Part shown: piece by piece, positions 1,067-46,050 of the stretch | Layout: every line of letters begins with the position of its first letter | How positions within the stretch are numbered: the first letter of the stretch is position 1 | Source of the DNA: Escherichia coli | GTDB taxonomy: Bacteria; Pseudomonadota; Gammaproteobacteria; Enterobacterales; Enterobacteriaceae | NCBI RefSeq assembly: GCF_003334405.1 | Contig: NZ_QOWM01000010.1 | Strand: one strand, 5' to 3' | DNA length: 64,000 nucleotides | Made by a program: the position numbers and the translations under genes | The notes under the pieces: generated by a model | What the model saw: the letters and a program-made list of their open reading frames with translations, nothing else | What the model was told of the DNA's origin: nothing | The model's database searches: none

Positions 1067-1228
1067 ATGTCACTGGAAAATGCCCCTGACGATGTCAAAC
1101 TGGCTGTCGATTTGATTGTGCTGCTGGAGGAAAATCAGATCCCTGCCAGTACCGTGCTGCGCGCGCTGGATATTGTAAAGCGTGATTATGAAAAGAAATT
1201 AACGCGCGATGATGAGGCGGAAAAGTGA
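1067..1228 (+). CDS. ybaM: Small protein YbaM (DUF2496)
   Basis: 53-codon ORF ([26 protein letters not shown]...) starting 13 nt after the priC stop; read directly from the sequence, below the size cut-off of the ORF track. Confidence 0.8.
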
Positions 1229-1280
1229 GAAATAAATGGGGTCGCTAAATGTCCCCTAAGGTTGCGGGCAAACGCAAAAC

Positions 1281-1380
1281 TGCCTGATGCGCTACGCTTA
1301 TCAGGCCTACACCGCTCCTGCAATATATTGAATTCTTGCGGTTTCGTAGGCCGGATAAGGCGGTCACGCCGCATCCGGCA
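1281..1380. repeat. BIME: two REP palindromic units in inverted orientation
   Basis: tgcctgatgcgctacgcttatcaggcctac ... gtaggccggataaggcggtcacgccgcatccggca; canonical REP sequences between convergent ybaM and mscK. Confidence 0.85.
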
Positions 1381-1439
1381 TGAACAACGCGCACTTTGTT
1401 AGCAATCTCGGGGCAACTAAATGTTGCCCCCTTTCGTTT

Positions 1440-4400
1440 TTACCCTACCGCTGGCGTCGGGTCATCGCCTTTGTAGTCGCGTTTTACTTCCGTCACCTCA
1501 TCGCCCTTCTCGTTGTGCAGATGCACTTCAAGCTGGTTAAAGGCAATGTTGATGTCGTTTTCACGGCACAGCTGATCGATAGTACGGTTCAGCTCATCGA
1601 CAGTACGACTACGGTCACGCAGTTCACGCACATACAGACGCAGCTCATGATCCAACGTGCTGGCACCAAATGCCGTAAAGAAGACTTCCGGCATTGGTTC
1701 GTGCATCACCCTTGGGTGCTCAGTCGCCGCCTTCAGTAACACTTTACGCACTTTTTCCAGATCGGAGCCATAGGCCACGCCGAGACGGATCACCAGACGC
1801 GTAGTAGTGTCAGTCAACGACCAGTTGATCAGACGCTCGGTAACAAACGCTTTGTTCGGGATGATCACTTCTTTGCGATCGAAATCGGTAATCGTTGTCG
1901 CACGAATACGGATCTTACTTACCGTCCCCGAGAAGCTACCAATGGTTACCGTATCGCCAATACGCACCGGACGTTCGAATAGAATGATCAAACCGGAGAC
2001 GAAGTTACCGAAAATTTCTTGTAAACCAAAACCAAGACCTACGGATAATGCTGCGGCCAGCCACTGGAGTTTATCCCAAGAGACGCCCAGCGATCCGAAC
2101 ACCGTCATCGCACCAACAGCAATAATGATGTAGTTAAGGATGGTAGTAATGGCATACGACGCGCCCTGGCGCATATTCAGTCGCGAGAGCACCAGCACTT
2201 CCAGTAAACCAGGCAGGTTGCGAATCAACGCCCAGGCCACCATTGAGGCGATAATCGCAAACAACAGACTGCCCATGGTGACGTTTTTCACCACCGCAGC
2301 GCCAGCTTCAGTGCCGTTGTAATGCCAGAGCGTGATGCTGTCGAGATAGCTGAACACGGTGATCAAATCGGACCAAATTGCCCAGAACATGACACCGAAC
2401 AGCGCAAACATCAGCAACATGGTAATACGCAGCGTCTGCTGGTTAACTTGCTCCAGTGCAATGGTGGGTTCTTCCGGCGGTTCAGCACCTTCTGCGCCCT
2501 CTTTCACCAGATTCTGCCGACGCGCCAGCGCACGACGCCAGGCGATACGCCGCGCCGCTACGCTTAAGCCACGCAGTACCGTCTGGTACAGCAGGTTCCA
2601 GATGATCACCAGATAAACGGTTTCAATCCAGCGTCCTGCCAGACGCAGCGTAGTGTAGAAGTAGCCTGTAGCAGTCAGCACCATCAGCGCAATCGGGATT
2701 ATCGACAGCACGGTAATGGTGACCAGTCGCATGGTGTGCGACTCTTTATCACGCCAGCTTTCGCGGCACATCGGCCATACCAGGAAGGCAATCAGCAGCA
2801 GGTTGAAGAAAATCATCGCTTGCCCCAGCACATCATCCATCAGATGCAGCGGGGAAAGTTCTGCCACCACAGACCAGAAATGGATAGGCAGCAATGCGAG
2901 ACTGATGCGGACAATTTGCCGACGCCAGTGGCTGGTCTGCTGTTCCGGCATGCCGAAGTGACGTACGGCAACGCCGTTTTTCTCCAGTACCTTCCAGCAC
3001 AGGCCAAACACCAGCCAGAATATCGCCAGTTTTTTGCTGAACGACCATAGCAGTTCGCTGATGTTGAGCTGCATGGTCAACAGAATCAGGCCAACCGCGA
3101 GAATAATCAGGCACACCGGCAGCGCACGGATCAGGTCGATAAGGATCGCTTTTGGTGTGTTGAGCTGGCTGTCGTTACGCAGGGAACCCACAGCGGAAGC
3201 CAGTTTTTGTTGATACGCTTTCAGCCAGCCCAGACGCCAGTGGATCAGCCCGGCAATCAACAGCAGCGGCAAACCAGCGAGGAAAGCGATAAAAACGGCG
3301 GGCCAGGCTTTTTGCCAGTTCACCGTGATTTTCATCGACTTAAATTCATCTTTCAGGCTTTGCGGGAACGCTTTGATCCAGTCCCAGTCCATTGGACGGT
3401 TACTGTTCACCCAAAAGATTTGCTGAGTCAGGATGGATTTCAGGTTTTTCGACACACTCATTAACTGCTGCTGGTTGATTTGCAGGTTAATGGCCATCAT
3501 CAGCTGGTTACCCAACTGTTTGTTGAGTTGATCCAGCAATTCGCGACGCATATCAACCACTTGCAATAACGCATCGTGAACTTCGCTGTTGACTTCGTTG
3601 GTGTGACCTTCTTCCAGTTTGTTGACGAACGCATCGCTCTGGAAGAGTGCATCACGCTGCTGGTTAACTTCAAACTGTTCGAGACGCAAATCCGCGATGC
3701 GGTTGGTCATGTTTTCCAGTTCATCCGCCGAGGGCAGCGTTTGTTGTTGCTGGTAAAGGATACGAGACAACAGCAGGCTGCCCTTCAGGACGGCAATCTG
3801 CTCTTTAATATTGCGTTCCGATTGCAGCGCCCGCTCCAGCCAGTTTTTGACTTTAATGTTTTGCTGCATCAACTGATTACCGTTTTCAGTCGCGGTAATC
3901 AGACGCTGACTTAACTGCTGGTTAATTTCCAGTTCCTGCTTCACCAGCGGATTAGCCTGAATACGCGCGGCTTCATCCGGGGAGACGGCTTCCTGCGCCG
4001 TTTTTTCGGTTAAAGTCAGGCGCTTGCTGTTTACCGCTTCTTGCAACAGTTGTAACTGGTGCTCCAGACGAGCGCTGTTCGCCGTCACGTAATCACGTTG
4101 CTTTTGCAAGGTATCCTGCAAGACGGTGTTCCCTTCCAGGCTTTTACGCTGCTGGTCAATCTCCGCATTCAGCAACGCCTGCTGGGCCTGCATTAACACT
4201 TTCTGGCTGGGACGTAAGGCTGTCTCGCCGACATCAGTCCCATCCAGACGACTGCGAATTTGTTGCAGCTGCTGCGAAGCGTTATACATCGCATTTTGCA
4301 CGCGTTCGGGCTGCGTCTGTAACGAAACCAGCTGGCTGTTATAAGACGCCAGATCGTTTTGTGCGTTTTGCAAATCGTCCAGCGCCTGGGCAACGCGAGT

Positions 4401-4802
4401 TTCCAGCTGGCGCAACGACAGCGTGCTCAGAATTTTGCGCGTTTCTTCGTCGTTATCGACATCGCTAAGTGCTGTTAACGCCGCGGTCGCCTGGCGCATT
4501 TTTTCCGGCGCTTCAGCGACTTTTTGCCGTAGCTGAACTGTCTCTTCTTTTATGCGATCGATTTTATCGAGGGTGGCTAATGTATCTGTCAGATCCTGCT
4601 GCACCAGTTTGTCCTGAGCAGAAAGATCTTTTTGTTTATTTAGTGAGTCAAGTTGCGCCTGCAGGTCCGCTTTTGTCGGCAGATCACCATTCGATGACGC
4701 CCGCGCAAACGCCGTGTTCTGGCATAACAAGACAAAAACAAAAGCAATAAATGCTGAAAAAACAAAATGCCGTGATCGTTTGTAATACTGGAACATAGTC
4801 AT
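1440..4802 (-). CDS. mscK: Potassium-dependent mechanosensitive channel MscK (KefA)
   Basis: 1120-aa ORF with signal peptide, long coiled-coil periplasmic region, multiple TM helices and a C-terminal MscS-like domain. Confidence 0.95.
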   Translation of the reverse strand: MTMFQYYKRSRHFVFSAFIAFVFVLLCQNTAFARASSNGDLPTKADLQAQLDSLNKQKDLSAQDKLVQQDLTDTLATLDKIDRIKEETVQLRQKVAEAPEKMRQATAALTALSDVDNDEETRKILSTLSLRQLETRVAQALDDLQNAQNDLASYNSQLVSLQTQPERVQNAMYNASQQLQQIRSRLDGTDVGETALRPSQKVLMQAQQALLNAEIDQQRKSLEGNTVLQDTLQKQRDYVTANSARLEHQLQLLQEAVNSKRLTLTEKTAQEAVSPDEAARIQANPLVKQELEINQQLSQRLITATENGNQLMQQNIKVKNWLERALQSERNIKEQIAVLKGSLLLSRILYQQQQTLPSADELENMTNRIADLRLEQFEVNQQRDALFQSDAFVNKLEEGHTNEVNSEVHDALLQVVDMRRELLDQLNKQLGNQLMMAINLQINQQQLMSVSKNLKSILTQQIFWVNSNRPMDWDWIKAFPQSLKDEFKSMKITVNWQKAWPAVFIAFLAGLPLLLIAGLIHWRLGWLKAYQQKLASAVGSLRNDSQLNTPKAILIDLIRALPVCLIILAVGLILLTMQLNISELLWSFSKKLAIFWLVFGLCWKVLEKNGVAVRHFGMPEQQTSHWRRQIVRISLALLPIHFWSVVAELSPLHLMDDVLGQAMIFFNLLLIAFLVWPMCRESWRDKESHTMRLVTITVLSIIPIALMVLTATGYFYTTLRLAGRWIETVYLVIIWNLLYQTVLRGLSVAARRIAWRRALARRQNLVKEGAEGAEPPEEPTIALEQVNQQTLRITMLLMFALFGVMFWAIWSDLITVFSYLDSITLWHYNGTEAGAAVVKNVTMGSLLFAIIASMVAWALIRNLPGLLEVLVLSRLNMRQGASYAITTILNYIIIAVGAMTVFGSLGVSWDKLQWLAAALSVGLGFGLQEIFGNFVSGLIILFERPVRIGDTVTIGSFSGTVSKIRIRATTITDFDRKEVIIPNKAFVTERLINWSLTDTTTRLVIRLGVAYGSDLEKVRKVLLKAATEHPRVMHEPMPEVFFTAFGASTLDHELRLYVRELRDRSRTVDELNRTIDQLCRENDINIAFNQLEVHLHNEKGDEVTEVKRDYKGDDPTPAVG

Positions 4803-44671: not shown

Positions 44672-46036
44672 ATGAACGATTATAAAATGACGCCAGGTGA
44701 GAGGCGCGCGACCTGGGGTTTAGGGACCGTATTCTCGTTGCGCATGCTGGGCATGTTTATGGTTCTGCCGGTTCTGACCACGTACGGCATGGCTCTGCAA
44801 GGTGCCAGCGAAGCATTAATCGGTATTGCCATTGGTATTTATGGTCTGACTCAGGCCGTTTTTCAGATTCCGTTTGGCCTGCTTTCCGACCGCATTGGTC
44901 GCAAACCATTAATTGTCGGTGGGCTGGCGGTGTTTGCCGCCGGTAGCGTTATCGCTGCGCTTTCCGACTCCATCTGGGGAATTATTCTGGGCCGGGCGCT
45001 ACAAGGCTCTGGAGCAATTGCCGCCGCCGTTATGGCGCTGCTTTCCGATCTCACGCGCGAACAAAACCGCACCAAAGCGATGGCGTTTATCGGCGTGAGC
45101 TTTGGCATTACCTTTGCCATTGCGATGGTGCTTGGCCCGATCATCACTCACAAACTTGGGCTGCACGCGCTGTTCTGGATGATCGCTATTCTGGCAACGA
45201 CCGGCATTGCGTTGACCATTTGGGTTGTGCCCAACAGTAGCACTCACGTACTTAATCGTGAGTCCGGAATGGTGAAAGGCAGTTTCAGTAAAGTGCTGGC
45301 GGAACCGCGGCTGCTGAAACTCAACTTTGGCATTATGTGTCTGCATATTTTGCTGATGTCGACGTTTGTTGCCCTGCCCGGACAACTGGCTGATGCAGGG
45401 TTCCCGGCGGCTGAACACTGGAAGGTCTATCTGGCGACAATGCTAATCGCCTTTGGCTCGGTCGTGCCTTTCATTATCTACGCTGAAGTTAAGCGCAAAA
45501 TGAAGCAAGTCTTTGTCTTCTGCGTCGGGTTGATCGTGGTTGCGGAAATTGTGTTGTGGAACGCGCAAACGCAGTTCTGGCAACTGGTGGTCGGCGTGCA
45601 GCTTTTCTTTGTGGCGTTTAATTTGATGGAAGCCCTCCTGCCCTCACTTATCAGTAAAGAGTCGCCAGCAGGTTACAAAGGTACGGCGATGGGTGTTTAC
45701 TCCACCAGCCAGTTTCTTGGCGTGGCGATTGGCGGTTCGCTGGGCGGCTGGATTAACGGCATGTTTGACGGTCAGGGGGTATTTCTCGCTGGCGCAATGC
45801 TGGCCGCAGTGTGGCTGACAGTCGCCAGTACCATGAAAGAACCGCCGTATGTCAGCAGTTTGCGCATTGAAATCCCGGCGAACATTGCCGCAAACGAGGC
45901 GTTAAAAGTGCGTTTGCTAGAAACTGAAGGCATCAAAGAAGTGTTGATTGCAGAAGAAGAACATTCAGCTTATGTGAAAATCGACAGCAAAGTGACGAAT
46001 CGCTTTGAGATAGAACAGGCAATTCGTCAGGCATAA
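44672..46036 (+). CDS. yajR: MFS transporter YajR
   Basis: ORF 44474..46036; start at MNDYKMTPGERRATWGLGTVFSLRMLG gives 454 aa; 12 TM helices plus a C-terminal soluble domain. Confidence 0.92.
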   Translation: MNDYKMTPGERRATWGLGTVFSLRMLGMFMVLPVLTTYGMALQGASEALIGIAIGIYGLTQAVFQIPFGLLSDRIGRKPLIVGGLAVFAAGSVIAALSDSIWGIILGRALQGSGAIAAAVMALLSDLTREQNRTKAMAFIGVSFGITFAIAMVLGPIITHKLGLHALFWMIAILATTGIALTIWVVPNSSTHVLNRESGMVKGSFSKVLAEPRLLKLNFGIMCLHILLMSTFVALPGQLADAGFPAAEHWKVYLATMLIAFGSVVPFIIYAEVKRKMKQVFVFCVGLIVVAEIVLWNAQTQFWQLVVGVQLFFVAFNLMEALLPSLISKESPAGYKGTAMGVYSTSQFLGVAIGGSLGGWINGMFDGQGVFLAGAMLAAVWLTVASTMKEPPYVSSLRIEIPANIAANEALKVRLLETEGIKEVLIAEEEHSAYVKIDSKVTNRFEIEQAIRQA

Positions 46037-46050
46037 AAAACGCGGCGAAT

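What the first reader, a model, noticed from the sequence alone, without database searches (positions are those of the whole stretch)
1281..1380. BIME (paired REP units) between ybaM and mscK
Two REP palindromes in inverted orientation, typical of BIME elements that bind gyrase/IHF and stabilise upstream mRNA. Structurally near-identical pairs recur at 46051..46139 and 60266..60375, always between convergent or tandem gene ends.
Basis: seen in the sequence. Interest (0 to 1): 0.2.

Follow-up and report, generated by a model that had tools for sequence, protein, structure and literature searches.

The report
Known E. coli BIME-1 repeat element
This is an ordinary, already catalogued copy of the E. 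coli BIME-1 repeat (two inverted REP hairpins around an IHF-type linker) between the rsmS/ybaM and mscK genes; while checking it I saw that this family is often flanked by a duplicated terminator hairpin, the footprint of transposition.

Summary
Window 1282-1310 matches the short Z-type REP exactly. Window 1346-1379 matches the Y-type REP with one mismatch, in inverted orientation. Chance expectation is 0.00. The window is the E. coli K-12 chromosome, and the element lies between the convergent genes rsmS (ybaM) and mscK.

It is a BIME-1 (also called RIB/RIP): z1 REP, 35-nt L linker with an IHF-like site, then y REP. Conserved terminal regions extend it to about 1257-1409. A published table already lists it as BIME-1, with no gyrase cleavage sites. 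Published Term-seq puts the rsmS-direction RNA 3' end at window 1436, so that transcript carries the whole element.

The gyrase part is not supported, because gyrase cleavage is a BIME-2 property. Only two other copies exist in the window, not three, and one has lost the IHF core.

About 28% of complete E. coli genomes lack the element.

Beyond the finding: 23 of 58 independent BIME-1 loci are flanked by direct repeats of 12-29 nt, nearly all of them hairpins. At two loci, strains without the element carry a single copy of the hairpin. This looks like a target-site duplication of a terminator. I could not find it in the literature I could read.

The parts
1067..1228 (+). rsmS (ybaM) coding sequence, 53 aa; upstream convergent gene (context)
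   Evidence: ORF; annotated as rsmS/ybaM.
1238..1256 (.). Left, decayed copy of the terminator hairpin (GGGGTCGCTAAATGTCCCC). It abuts the left end of the element and has no T-run after it.
   Evidence: About 16 of 21 positions match the right copy at 1410-1430 by my hand alignment of the sequence. The E. whittamii orthologue has the same arrangement (L057). Strains without the element have one hairpin.
1257..1281 (.). Left terminal region of BIME-1 (TAAGGTTGCGGGCAAACGCAAAACT; family consensus TGAGACTGATGACAAACGCAAAAYT). It is an imperfect inverted repeat of the right terminal region.
   Evidence: Column conservation over 119 copies; alignment A2; predicted to pair with 1380-1409 in the RNA fold.
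1282..1310 (+). z1-type REP / palindromic unit (short Z form), ending in CTAC
   Evidence: 0 mismatches, chance expectation 0.00. Named z1 because a sucB-sucC BIME-2 carries the long Z form, taken as z2.
1311..1345 (.). L linker, 35 nt. The conserved core TGCAATATATTGAATT is at 1319-1334. On the - strand ATTCAATATATTG (1321-1333) matches the IHF consensus WATCAANNNNTTR (recalled from memory) with one mismatch.
   Evidence: Sequence. The same core is present in copy 60301-60335. [quoted passage not shown]
1346..1379 (-). y-type REP / palindromic unit; GTAG foot at 1346-1349 on the + strand
   Evidence: 1 mismatch to the Y consensus, chance expectation 0.00.
1380..1409 (.). Right terminal region of BIME-1 (ATGAACAACGCGCACTTTGTTAGCAATCTC; family consensus ATGAACAAAGCGCACTTTGTCAACAATCTG)
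1410..1441 (+). Right, intact copy of the hairpin (GGGGCAACTAAATGTTGCCCC, 1410-1430) followed by CTTTCGTTTTT. This is the intrinsic terminator of the rsmS-direction transcript.
   Evidence: Terminator scan. Published Term-seq 3' end at MG1655 489902/489903 (-) equals window 1436/1435.
1440..4802 (-). mscK coding sequence, 1120 aa; downstream convergent gene (context)
   Evidence: ORF; annotation.
46026..46170 (+). Second BIME-1 copy, degenerate: z1 46052-46080, 24-nt linker lacking CAATATATTG, y 46105-46138. It lies between yajR and yajQ, whose stop codons fall in its terminal regions.
   Evidence: Listed with 0 gyrase cleavage sites.
60239..60391 (-). Third BIME-1 copy, inverted relative to the first: y 60267-60300, L with intact core, z1 60336-60364. 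It lies between tsx and yajD. The yajD stop codon (60380-60382) lies inside its terminal region.
   Evidence: The tsx-direction Term-seq 3' end is at window 60369.

Best explanation
Window 1257-1409 is one copy of BIME-1, a dispersed E. coli repeat about 150 nt long that is also called RIB or RIP. It consists of a left terminal region, a z1 REP hairpin, the conserved L linker with an IHF-type site, a y REP hairpin in inverted orientation, and a right terminal region.

It sits between the convergent genes rsmS (ybaM) and mscK. It is bracketed by two copies of what was once a single bidirectional terminator hairpin.

Shown:
- Its identity and anatomy.
- Its family: 117 same-architecture copies in Escherichia and Pseudocitrobacter.
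- Its presence or absence among E. coli strains.
- The rsmS-direction RNA runs through the whole element and ends at the far hairpin (window 1436).
- No gyrase cleavage was detected at it.

Inferred:
- As DNA, the L linker binds IHF.
- As RNA, the two G+C-rich REP hairpins in the rsmS 3' UTR, and in any mscK read-through RNA, act as barriers to 3' exonucleases and as partial terminators.
- The element arrived by transposition-like insertion at the terminator hairpin and duplicated it. As a result each gene's full hairpin-plus-U-tract now lies on the far side of the element.
For: REP matches are far beyond chance.

The locus is 100% identical to E. coli K-12 rsmS-mscK.

The short Z form is z1, because a BIME-2 named in the literature (sucB-sucC) carries the long Z form. 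BIME-1 is defined as z1 + y with a long L linker that often carries an IHF site (PMC3333891; PMC1187871, which gives a size of '140 bp').

Copy 60239-60376 is 83% identical over 138 nt. 117 copies from other genomes share the same flank-z1-L-y-flank architecture.

A published table lists 'BIMEs1 489184-489281, 97 bp' with 0 gyrase cleavage sites. This equals window 1282-1379 after a constant -775 offset, which also maps the two other window copies exactly.

Term-seq gives a 3' end at 489902/489903 (-), which is window 1436/1435. A terminator-like site is predicted at 1410-1430.

The RNA fold has z = -4.7 on the + strand and -4.3 on the - strand, with both REP hairpins, terminal-region pairing and the terminator hairpin.

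For mobility:
- The element is absent from about 28% of complete E. coli genomes (3881 of 5426 carry it). Those without it have one hairpin in a 38-nt intergenic region.
- Flanking direct hairpin repeats occur at 23 of 58 independent loci, against 0.06% of mismatched control pairs.
- There are two clean empty/filled allele pairs.
Against: IHF binding at this copy was not tested. No locus-level IHF ChIP table was available, and the IHF match has one mismatch to the consensus.

No mRNA half-life data exist here for rsmS or mscK. A 2026 preprint reports that REP effects are context dependent and that terminal REPs are not generally associated with longer half-lives.

At this particular locus the flanking hairpin copies are only about 16/21 identical. 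The element-less allele also differs in the hairpin loop and in the rsmS 3' end. So insertion at this locus is inferred by analogy with cleaner loci.

The REP consensus sequences and the IHF consensus were recalled from memory. Only the z1/z2 naming was checked against a reference locus.
Confidence: 0.93

Rival explanations
1. It is a BIME-2-type element, meaning a strong gyrase binding and cleavage site that relieves transcription-induced supercoiling between convergent genes. This is part of the first reader's reading.
For: REP sequences in general were reported to bind gyrase (Yang and Ames 1988, cited). The element lies between convergent genes, where positive supercoils accumulate.
Against: It has z1, not z2, and a long L linker rather than a short S linker, and it is a single unit rather than a tandem array. 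Published Topo-seq shows 0 cleavage sites at this element in four conditions. BIME-1 as a class is depleted (3 observed against 9 expected), whereas BIME-2 is enriched.
Confidence: 0.04
2. It is a purely selfish, non-autonomous mobile element with no host function at this locus. On this view IHF binding and RNA hairpins serve only the element's own transposition, or are neutral.
For: Presence/absence polymorphism: about 28% of complete E. coli genomes lack it, with intact flanking genes. There is a transposition-like footprint. The copy at 46052-46138 has lost the IHF core without being removed. PMC1187871 reports that 71% of BIME-1 length lies in strain-specific loops.
Against: The orthologous insertion, with the same locus-specific linker bases, is kept in E. 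albertii, E. whittamii and two unnamed Escherichia species (L036, L057, L075, L107). That means retention over a long time. The rsmS transcript demonstrably includes it. A preprint finds higher expression of convergent gene pairs that have a REP between them.
Confidence: 0.35
3. It encodes a small RNA of the naRNA4 type, that is, a REP-derived nucleoid-associated RNA, rather than being a 3' UTR or DNA element.
For: Rfam naRNA4 (RF02564) matches 1349-1385 with 35.4 bits, E = 1.9e-4.
Against: The score is far below the family's gathering threshold of 59.5 bits and the match covers only one REP hairpin. naRNA4 derives from REP325, so any REP resembles it. No promoter-like site was found in 900-1800. 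The only mapped 3' end fits read-through from rsmS. A 2026 preprint disputes the nucleoid role of naRNA4 itself.
Confidence: 0.03
4. The flanking hairpin repeats are not target-site duplications. Instead they arise by intrastrand template switching that extends the long BIME-1 quasi-palindrome into neighbouring sequence.
For: Hairpin + BIME-1 + hairpin is itself a longer quasi-palindrome. Template switching at quasi-palindromes is an established mutational process (my own knowledge).
Against: Template switching would make the two copies reverse complements of each other, so the loops would be inverted. The copies are instead direct repeats with identical loops. The direct score exceeds the inverted score in 18 of 21 loci. 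An example is AAGCACCTTTTACAAGGTGCTT on both sides at yhaJ-yhaH. Empty alleles carry exactly one copy.
Confidence: 0.05

Closest known systems
BIME-1 (also called RIB, 'reiterative ihf BIME', or RIP, 'repetitive IHF-binding palindromic' element) of E. coli
   Same: One z1 and one y REP in inverted orientation. A long conserved L linker with an IHF-type site. A single unit of about 140-150 bp with conserved outer motifs. Located at the 3' ends of transcription units. Present or absent among strains. This very copy is listed as BIME-1 in a published table.
   Different: Nothing essential differs. The y unit has one mismatch to the consensus, and the left terminal region is more diverged than in most copies.
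BIME-2 (y + z2 REPs, short linkers, tandem arrays; the gyrase-cleaved class)
   Same: Built from REP units in alternating orientation. Extragenic. Shares the same y unit.
   Different: BIME-2 uses the long z2 unit and short S/s/l/r linkers, occurs in tandem, and is enriched in gyrase cleavage sites. The element here has none of these properties.
REPIN / RAYT system (REP doublets thought to be mobilised by REP-associated tyrosine transposases, TnpA-REP)
   Same: Two inverted REP hairpins with GTAG feet separated by a spacer. Non-autonomous. Dispersed in intergenic regions.
   Different: Y1/HUH transposases of the IS200/IS605 type act on single strands and do not make larger target duplications. 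BIME-1 copies are often flanked by 12-29-nt direct repeats. No RAYT gene lies in this window, and none was tested.
Bacterial MITEs that carry an IHF site, such as the Neisseria Correia element
   Same: About 100-160 bp, with terminal inverted repeats, a central IHF site, location at gene ends, co-transcription and strong RNA folding (for the MITE definition and the Correia IHF site).
   Different: Correia elements duplicate a TA dinucleotide (my own knowledge). BIME-1 duplicates a whole locus-specific hairpin of variable length. [quoted passage not shown]
Duplication of the palindromic CRISPR repeat by Cas1-Cas2 (and the 14-15-bp duplications of casposons)
   Same: This is a mechanistic analogy only, from my own knowledge and not tested here. 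Two staggered strand transfers at the two borders of a roughly 28-bp palindromic repeat duplicate the whole repeat, and in E. coli this step depends on IHF.
   Different: There is no evidence that Cas1-Cas2 acts on BIME-1. BIME-1 has fixed ends and targets many different hairpins.

Membership tests
REP / palindromic unit (PU) | Imperfect G+C-rich palindrome of about 29-35 nt matching the Y or Z consensus | tested here: met
   0 and 1 mismatches; chance expectation 0.00. The consensus sequences were recalled from memory, but they are independently borne out by 117 copies from other genomes.
REP / palindromic unit (PU) | Conserved GTAG/CTAC tetranucleotide at the foot of the hairpin | tested here: met
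   CTAC at 1307-1310 and GTAG at 1346-1349. The feature is described.
REP / palindromic unit (PU) | Extragenic, and present in many copies per genome | tested here: met
   It lies in the 211-nt rsmS-mscK intergenic region. There is a median of 19 megablast places per E. coli genome for a query containing it.
BIME-1 (RIB/RIP) | One z1 and one y unit in inverse orientation | tested here: met
   z1 is assigned because the sucB-sucC BIME-2 has the longer Z form, taken as z2.
BIME-1 (RIB/RIP) | Long, conserved L linker carrying an IHF consensus | tested here: met
   35-nt linker with the core TGCAATATATTGAATT. The core is shared with the copy at 60301-60335 and was the search bait for the 117 other copies. 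It has one mismatch to WATCAANNNNTTR (consensus from memory).
BIME-1 (RIB/RIP) | IHF protein actually binds the linker | not testable with these tools
   No locus-level IHF ChIP table was held. The original binding papers (PMC413762) are not held.
BIME-1 (RIB/RIP) | Single unit of about 140 bp with conserved outer motifs, not a tandem array | tested here: met
   Single unit. Conserved terminal regions at 1257-1281 and 1380-1409. The 140-bp size is given.
BIME-1 (RIB/RIP) | Listed as BIME-1 by others | tested here: met
   'BIMEs1 489184-489281' in PMC6379681 table DS3. The coordinate offset of -775 is verified by all three window copies. The RefSeq record shows no repeat feature at this position.
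BIME-2 (gyrase class) | z2 units, short linkers, tandem repetition | tested here: not met
BIME-2 (gyrase class) | Gyrase cleavage in vivo | tested here: not met
   Published Topo-seq shows 0 sites in the Cfx, RifCfx, microcin B17 and oxolinic acid conditions.
MITE-like non-autonomous transposon | Terminal inverted repeats | tested here: inconclusive
   There is an imperfect 15-nt match between the ends: GAGACTGATGACAAA against CAGATTGTTGACAAA in the family consensus. In this copy it is weaker, but the ends are predicted to pair in RNA.
MITE-like non-autonomous transposon | Target-site duplication, with one copy at empty sites | tested here: met
   For the family: 23/58 loci against 0.06% of controls, direct rather than inverted repeats, and two empty/filled allele pairs. 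At this locus the two copies are decayed to about 16/21 identity.
MITE-like non-autonomous transposon | A cognate transposase that recognises the ends | not tested
   No candidate was identified. RAYT (TnpA-REP) is the published suspect, but it is not expected to make duplications.
Intrinsic terminator (the hairpin at 1410-1441) | G+C-rich stem-loop followed by a T-run, with an RNA 3' end mapped there | tested here: met
   8-bp stem, 6 G-C pairs, followed by CTTTCGTTTT. The Term-seq 3' end is at window 1436/1435.

The most novel reading that the evidence does not exclude
BIME-1 elements may move, or once moved, by a structure-directed double-strand integration at intrinsic-terminator hairpins.

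On this reading the two strands are joined at the two feet of the hairpin, perhaps extruded as a cruciform. The whole hairpin, 12-29 bp plus 2-3 flanking A/T, is then duplicated on both sides of the element.

This would split a bidirectional terminator into two halves, each keeping only its far-side U-tract. Both convergent mRNAs would then acquire the element as 3' UTR.

Such a footprint is not predicted by the current single-strand RAYT (Y1/HUH) model of REP/BIME mobility. I did not find it described in the literature I could read. The element in this window would be an old, partly decayed example.
Probability: 0.3. Interest if true: 0.65.

Novelty: already known. Interest (0 to 1): 0.22.

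Why it matters
The element itself is textbook. REP/BIME repeats make up about 1% of the E. coli chromosome, and this copy is already catalogued. The useful result for the scan is a correct label: BIME-1, the IHF class, not the gyrase class. It also gives corrected extents and the count of three copies in the window.

What could matter more widely is the by-product. How REP/BIME elements spread has been open for about 40 years. Recent papers still call the insertion mechanism 'not fully established' and 'currently unknown'. A reproducible duplication of the target hairpin, with single-copy empty sites, would give that question a concrete footprint that can be tested. It would also explain why these elements sit between convergent genes without abolishing termination.

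Tried and rejected
- I looked for a repeat_region annotation in the RefSeq K-12 record. None is shown there.
- The Rfam search gave only sub-threshold naRNA4/ES036 hits, which reflect generic REP similarity.
- I sought locus-level IHF ChIP evidence. The supplement of PMC3333857 is not held and the text does not mention REP.
- I tried to read the primary BIME papers: Boccard and Prentki 1993 (PMC413762), Gilson 1991 (PMC333889) and Bachellier 1997 (PMC1207841). None is held. So I cannot exclude that flanking duplications of BIME-1 were already described there.
- Three further literature searches for BIME/REP target duplication found nothing relevant.
- The supplement of PMC6061677 is not held.
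- My first recollection of the names was wrong: I took the short Z unit for z2. I corrected this by reading a literature-named BIME-2.
- The automatic MAFFT alignment of filled against empty alleles at this locus was misleading, so I redid it pairwise.
- I rejected BIME-2/gyrase site, naRNA-type sRNA and template-switch origin of the flanking repeats; the reasons are given under rival explanations.
- I did not pursue chance resemblances of the element ends to IS10, IS30 or IS903 ends. These came from memory only and were weak.

Full report
OBSERVATION

The sequence at 1281-1380 holds two REP units.
- GCCTGATGCGCTACGCTTATCAGGCCTAC is at 1282-1310 on the + strand.
- The reverse complement of GCCGGATGCGGCGTGACCGCCTTATCCGGCCTAC is at 1346-1379.
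- They are separated by 35 nt.

Searching the whole window with the two consensus sequences gave three Z-type matches (0, 1 and 0 mismatches) and one Y-type match within 3 mismatches. The expected number in shuffled sequence was 0.00. A Hamming scan allowing up to 9 mismatches found exactly six REP units arranged as three pairs:
- 1282-1310 / 1346-1379
- 46052-80 / 46105-38
- 60267-300 / 60336-64

WHERE IT IS

The region 1000-1700 is 100% identical to E. coli K-12 and many other strains. It is annotated priC, rsmS (formerly ybaM) and mscK.
- rsmS is at 1067-1228 (+).
- mscK is at 1440-4802 (-).
- The element therefore lies in the 211-nt gap between convergent stop codons.

The other two pairs also lie between convergent genes: yajR/yajQ and tsx/yajD.

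WHICH KIND OF BIME

The literature I could read defines two classes (PMC3333891; PMC1187871; PMC2817692).
- BIME-1: one z1 and one y unit, with a long conserved L linker that often carries an IHF site. Single copy, about 140 bp.
- BIME-2: y and z2 units with short linkers, in tandem arrays. This is the class bound and cleaved by gyrase.

I first remembered the z1/z2 names the wrong way round, so I checked. PMC6379681 names the sucB-sucC repeat as a gyrase-cleaved BIME-2. That repeat carries the long Z form GCCTGATGCGACGCTGACGCGTCTTATCAGGCCTAC. The short 29-nt Z form here is therefore z1.

The linker contains TGCAATATATTGAATT (1319-1334). On the minus strand this reads ATTCAATATATTG, one mismatch from the IHF consensus WATCAANNNNTTR (consensus from memory). 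The element is thus z1-L-y, a BIME-1.

FULL EXTENT

The repeat finder paired 1270-1407 with 60239-60376 at 83% identity over 138 nt in inverted orientation. So conservation reaches beyond the REP units.

One scan of 100,044 species genomes for the Z tail plus the L core returned 102 loci with 117 copies. All share one architecture:
- left terminal region, consensus TGAGACTGATGACAAACGCAAAAYT
- z1
- L
- y
- right terminal region, consensus ATGAACAAAGCGCACTTTGTCAACAATCTG

The two ends are imperfect inverted repeats of each other. In the window the full element is about 1257-1409.

The copy at 46052-46138 has the same ends but lacks 11 nt (CAATATATTG plus one base) of L. It has therefore lost the IHF-like core.

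The scan hits come from several Escherichia species and from Pseudocitrobacter. A few come from tiny contigs in unrelated assemblies and are probably contamination. Because L was part of the bait, this set cannot be used to measure conservation of L.

PUBLISHED EXPERIMENTAL DATA FOR THIS COPY

Gyrase. Table DS3 of PMC6379681 lists 'BIMEs1 489184-489281, 97 bp' with 0 gyrase cleavage sites in all four drug conditions.
- With a constant offset of -775 from MG1655 coordinates, this is window 1282-1379.
- The same offset maps the other two window copies exactly onto entries 444425-444511 and 430193-430290. Both have 0 sites, and both are filed there under 'BIMEs2'.
- The 78 BIME-1 elements as a class are depleted in cleavage sites (3 observed against 9.0 expected with ciprofloxacin).

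RNA 3' ends. The curated Term-seq table of PMC7815308 has a strong 3' end at 489902/489903 on the minus strand, with the flanking sequence printed.
- This is window 1436/1435, a few bases after the hairpin GGGGCAACTAAATGTTGCCCC (1410-1430) and inside its T-run. The terminator scan found the same site.
- So the rsmS-direction transcript crosses the entire element and ends at the hairpin on its far side.
- The same paper lists a Rho-dependent region at 490200 (+), antisense to ybaM. This indicates mscK-direction read-through across the element.
- For the third copy, the tsx-direction 3' end is at window 60369, just after the z1 hairpin and its U-rich flank.
- For the second copy, the yajQ-direction RNA also crosses the element.

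RNA folds of 1229-1442 are much more stable than shuffles (z = -4.7 and -4.3). They show both REP hairpins, pairing of the terminal regions and the terminator hairpin.

POLYMORPHISM

Of 5,426 complete E. coli genomes, 3,881 have the element.

The rest include O157:H7 and ST131 strains. In these the two stop codons are 38 nt apart, with a single hairpin GGGCGGCATCACTGTCGCCC between an A-tract and a T-tract. They also have a slightly different rsmS C-terminus (54 aa instead of 53).

The same insertion, recognisable by the same locus-specific linker bases, is present in E. albertii, E. whittamii and two unnamed Escherichia species (L036, L057, L075, L107). The insertion is therefore old.

In strain UTAK-14, an IS621 is inserted at the CT of GGCCTAC at the foot of the z1 unit of this very element. 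This fits the reported REP specificity of IS621.

FLANKING DUPLICATION (BEYOND THE FINDING)

In K-12 the element is bracketed by two related hairpins:
- GGGGTCGCTAAATGTCCCC at 1238-1256
- GGGGCAACTAAATGTTGCCCC at 1410-1430

I tested whether this is general.
- I removed copies with neighbouring REPs and collapsed orthologous loci. That left 58 independent loci.
- I compared the 45 nt outside the left end with the 45 nt outside the right end.
- 23 loci scored 12 or more, against 0.06% of 3,306 mismatched control pairs. 17 scored 15 or more, against none of the controls. Mann-Whitney p = 2e-11.

Properties of the repeats:
- They abut the element ends at fixed offsets.
- They are 12-29 nt long, median 21.
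- Nearly all fold as perfect G+C-rich hairpins, typically with AA on the 5' side and TT(T) on the 3' side.
- They are direct rather than inverted. The direct score exceeds the inverted score in 18 of 21 loci, and the loops are identical.

Two polymorphic E. coli loci give clean pairs.
- yhaJ-yhaH: the empty allele has one AAGCACCTTTTACAAGGTGCTT. The filled allele has two perfect copies flanking a BIME-1 of about 150 nt.
- uvrB-yvcK: the empty allele has one GAAGCCGGAATATTCTTCCGGCTTC. One filled allele has two copies. K-12 keeps the right copy and only GAAG of the left.

This is the classical footprint of insertion with target-site duplication. Read in the other direction, it is the footprint of precise excision between the repeats.

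HOW IT MOST LIKELY WORKS

Shown:
- The anatomy of the element.
- The family it belongs to.
- The polymorphism among strains.
- The rsmS-direction 3' end at the far hairpin.
- The absence of gyrase cleavage.

Inferred:

1. The ancestral locus had one bidirectional terminator (A-tract, hairpin, T-tract) between rsmS and mscK. BIME-1 inserted there and duplicated the hairpin.
   - The copy next to each gene lost the U-tract that gene needs. The far copy kept it.
   - Transcripts therefore read through the element. This is seen for rsmS.

2. In RNA, the two REP hairpins then sit in the 3' UTR. There REP hairpins are known to block 3' exonucleases and to attenuate transcription. For RNA entering from the y side, z1 plus its U-rich flank resembles a terminator, as seen at tsx.

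3. In DNA, the L linker binds and is bent by IHF. The cellular purpose of that binding is not established in the literature I read.

4. The enzyme that makes the insertion is unknown.
   - The published candidate is the RAYT transposase. It acts on single strands and should not produce such duplications.
   - A staggered attack at the two feet of an extruded hairpin would produce them. The known analogue is duplication of the CRISPR repeat by Cas1-Cas2. That comparison is from memory and is an analogy only.

COMPARISON AND NOVELTY

The element meets every sequence-level defining feature of BIME-1 and is already listed as one. It fails the defining features of BIME-2.

I did not find the terminator-hairpin duplication in the reviews and papers available to me.
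- Recent papers call the insertion mechanism unknown.
- The key 1990s BIME papers could not be read, so priority is uncertain.

CAVEATS

- The REP and IHF consensus sequences came from memory.
- The family set was baited with an exact L core and Z tail.
- E. coli sensu stricto appears to be missing from the species collection.
- The orthology collapse was heuristic.
- At the locus of the finding itself the duplicated hairpins are decayed, and the element-less allele is not a perfect 'empty site'.

Noticed in passing
Loci L009-L115; in the window 1238-1256 and 1410-1430: BIME-1 copies are often flanked by direct repeats of a locus-specific terminator-like hairpin, 12-29 nt long (median 21). This holds at 23 of 58 independent loci against 0.06% of controls. 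At yhaJ-yhaH and uvrB-yvcK, empty alleles carry exactly one copy. It looks like a long, structure-defined target-site duplication. I did not find it in the literature I could read.
   Followed up: partly
L006 (E. coli UTAK-14), junction corresponding to window 1307-1308: An IS621 (IS110 family) is inserted at the CT of GGCCTAC at the foot of the z1 REP of this same BIME-1. The IS end reads ...AACAGTATCT and is followed by ACACCGCTCC. This is consistent with the published REP specificity of IS621.
   Followed up: partly
window 1205-1228 compared with L004/L005/L007: The two intergenic haplotypes (with and without BIME-1) also differ in the last codons of rsmS. K-12 ends ...[11 protein letters not shown] (53 aa); O157:H7 and ST131 end ...KKLQSDEASQSE* (54 aa). 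The divergent segment therefore starts inside the gene.
   Followed up: no
window 60380-60382 (- strand): The TGA stop codon of yajD lies inside the terminal region of the third BIME-1 copy (yajD ends ...MMNKKK*). The element therefore supplies the end of the reading frame. No left hairpin copy is visible on that side.
   Followed up: partly
window 46034-46036 and 46164-46166: The degenerate BIME-1 at 46026-46170 fills the whole 127-nt gap between yajR and yajQ. Both stop codons fall within its terminal regions. Its linker has an 11-nt deletion that removes the IHF-like core.
   Followed up: partly
L096, L097, L078, L079, L099, L110 (Escherichia sp. MOD1-EC7003 and E1V33): In these genomes BIME-1 units occur in tandem arrays of 2-5 copies. 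In some arrays (e.g. L096, L078, L079) the units are separated by a copy of the same flanking hairpin, as expected from unequal exchange between the flanking repeats. The literature describes BIME-1 as single-copy.
   Followed up: no
window, somewhere between 46138 and 60267: The window-to-MG1655 coordinate offset changes from 491338 to 491332. The window therefore differs from MG1655 by a net 6 nt somewhere in this stretch. I did not locate the difference.
   Followed up: no
loci L009, L015, L022, L083: Perfect E. coli-type BIME-1 sequences occur on very short contigs of assemblies labelled Bacteroides, Collinsella, Desulfosporosinus and Methylobacterium. This is most likely Escherichia contamination of those assemblies.
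   Followed up: no
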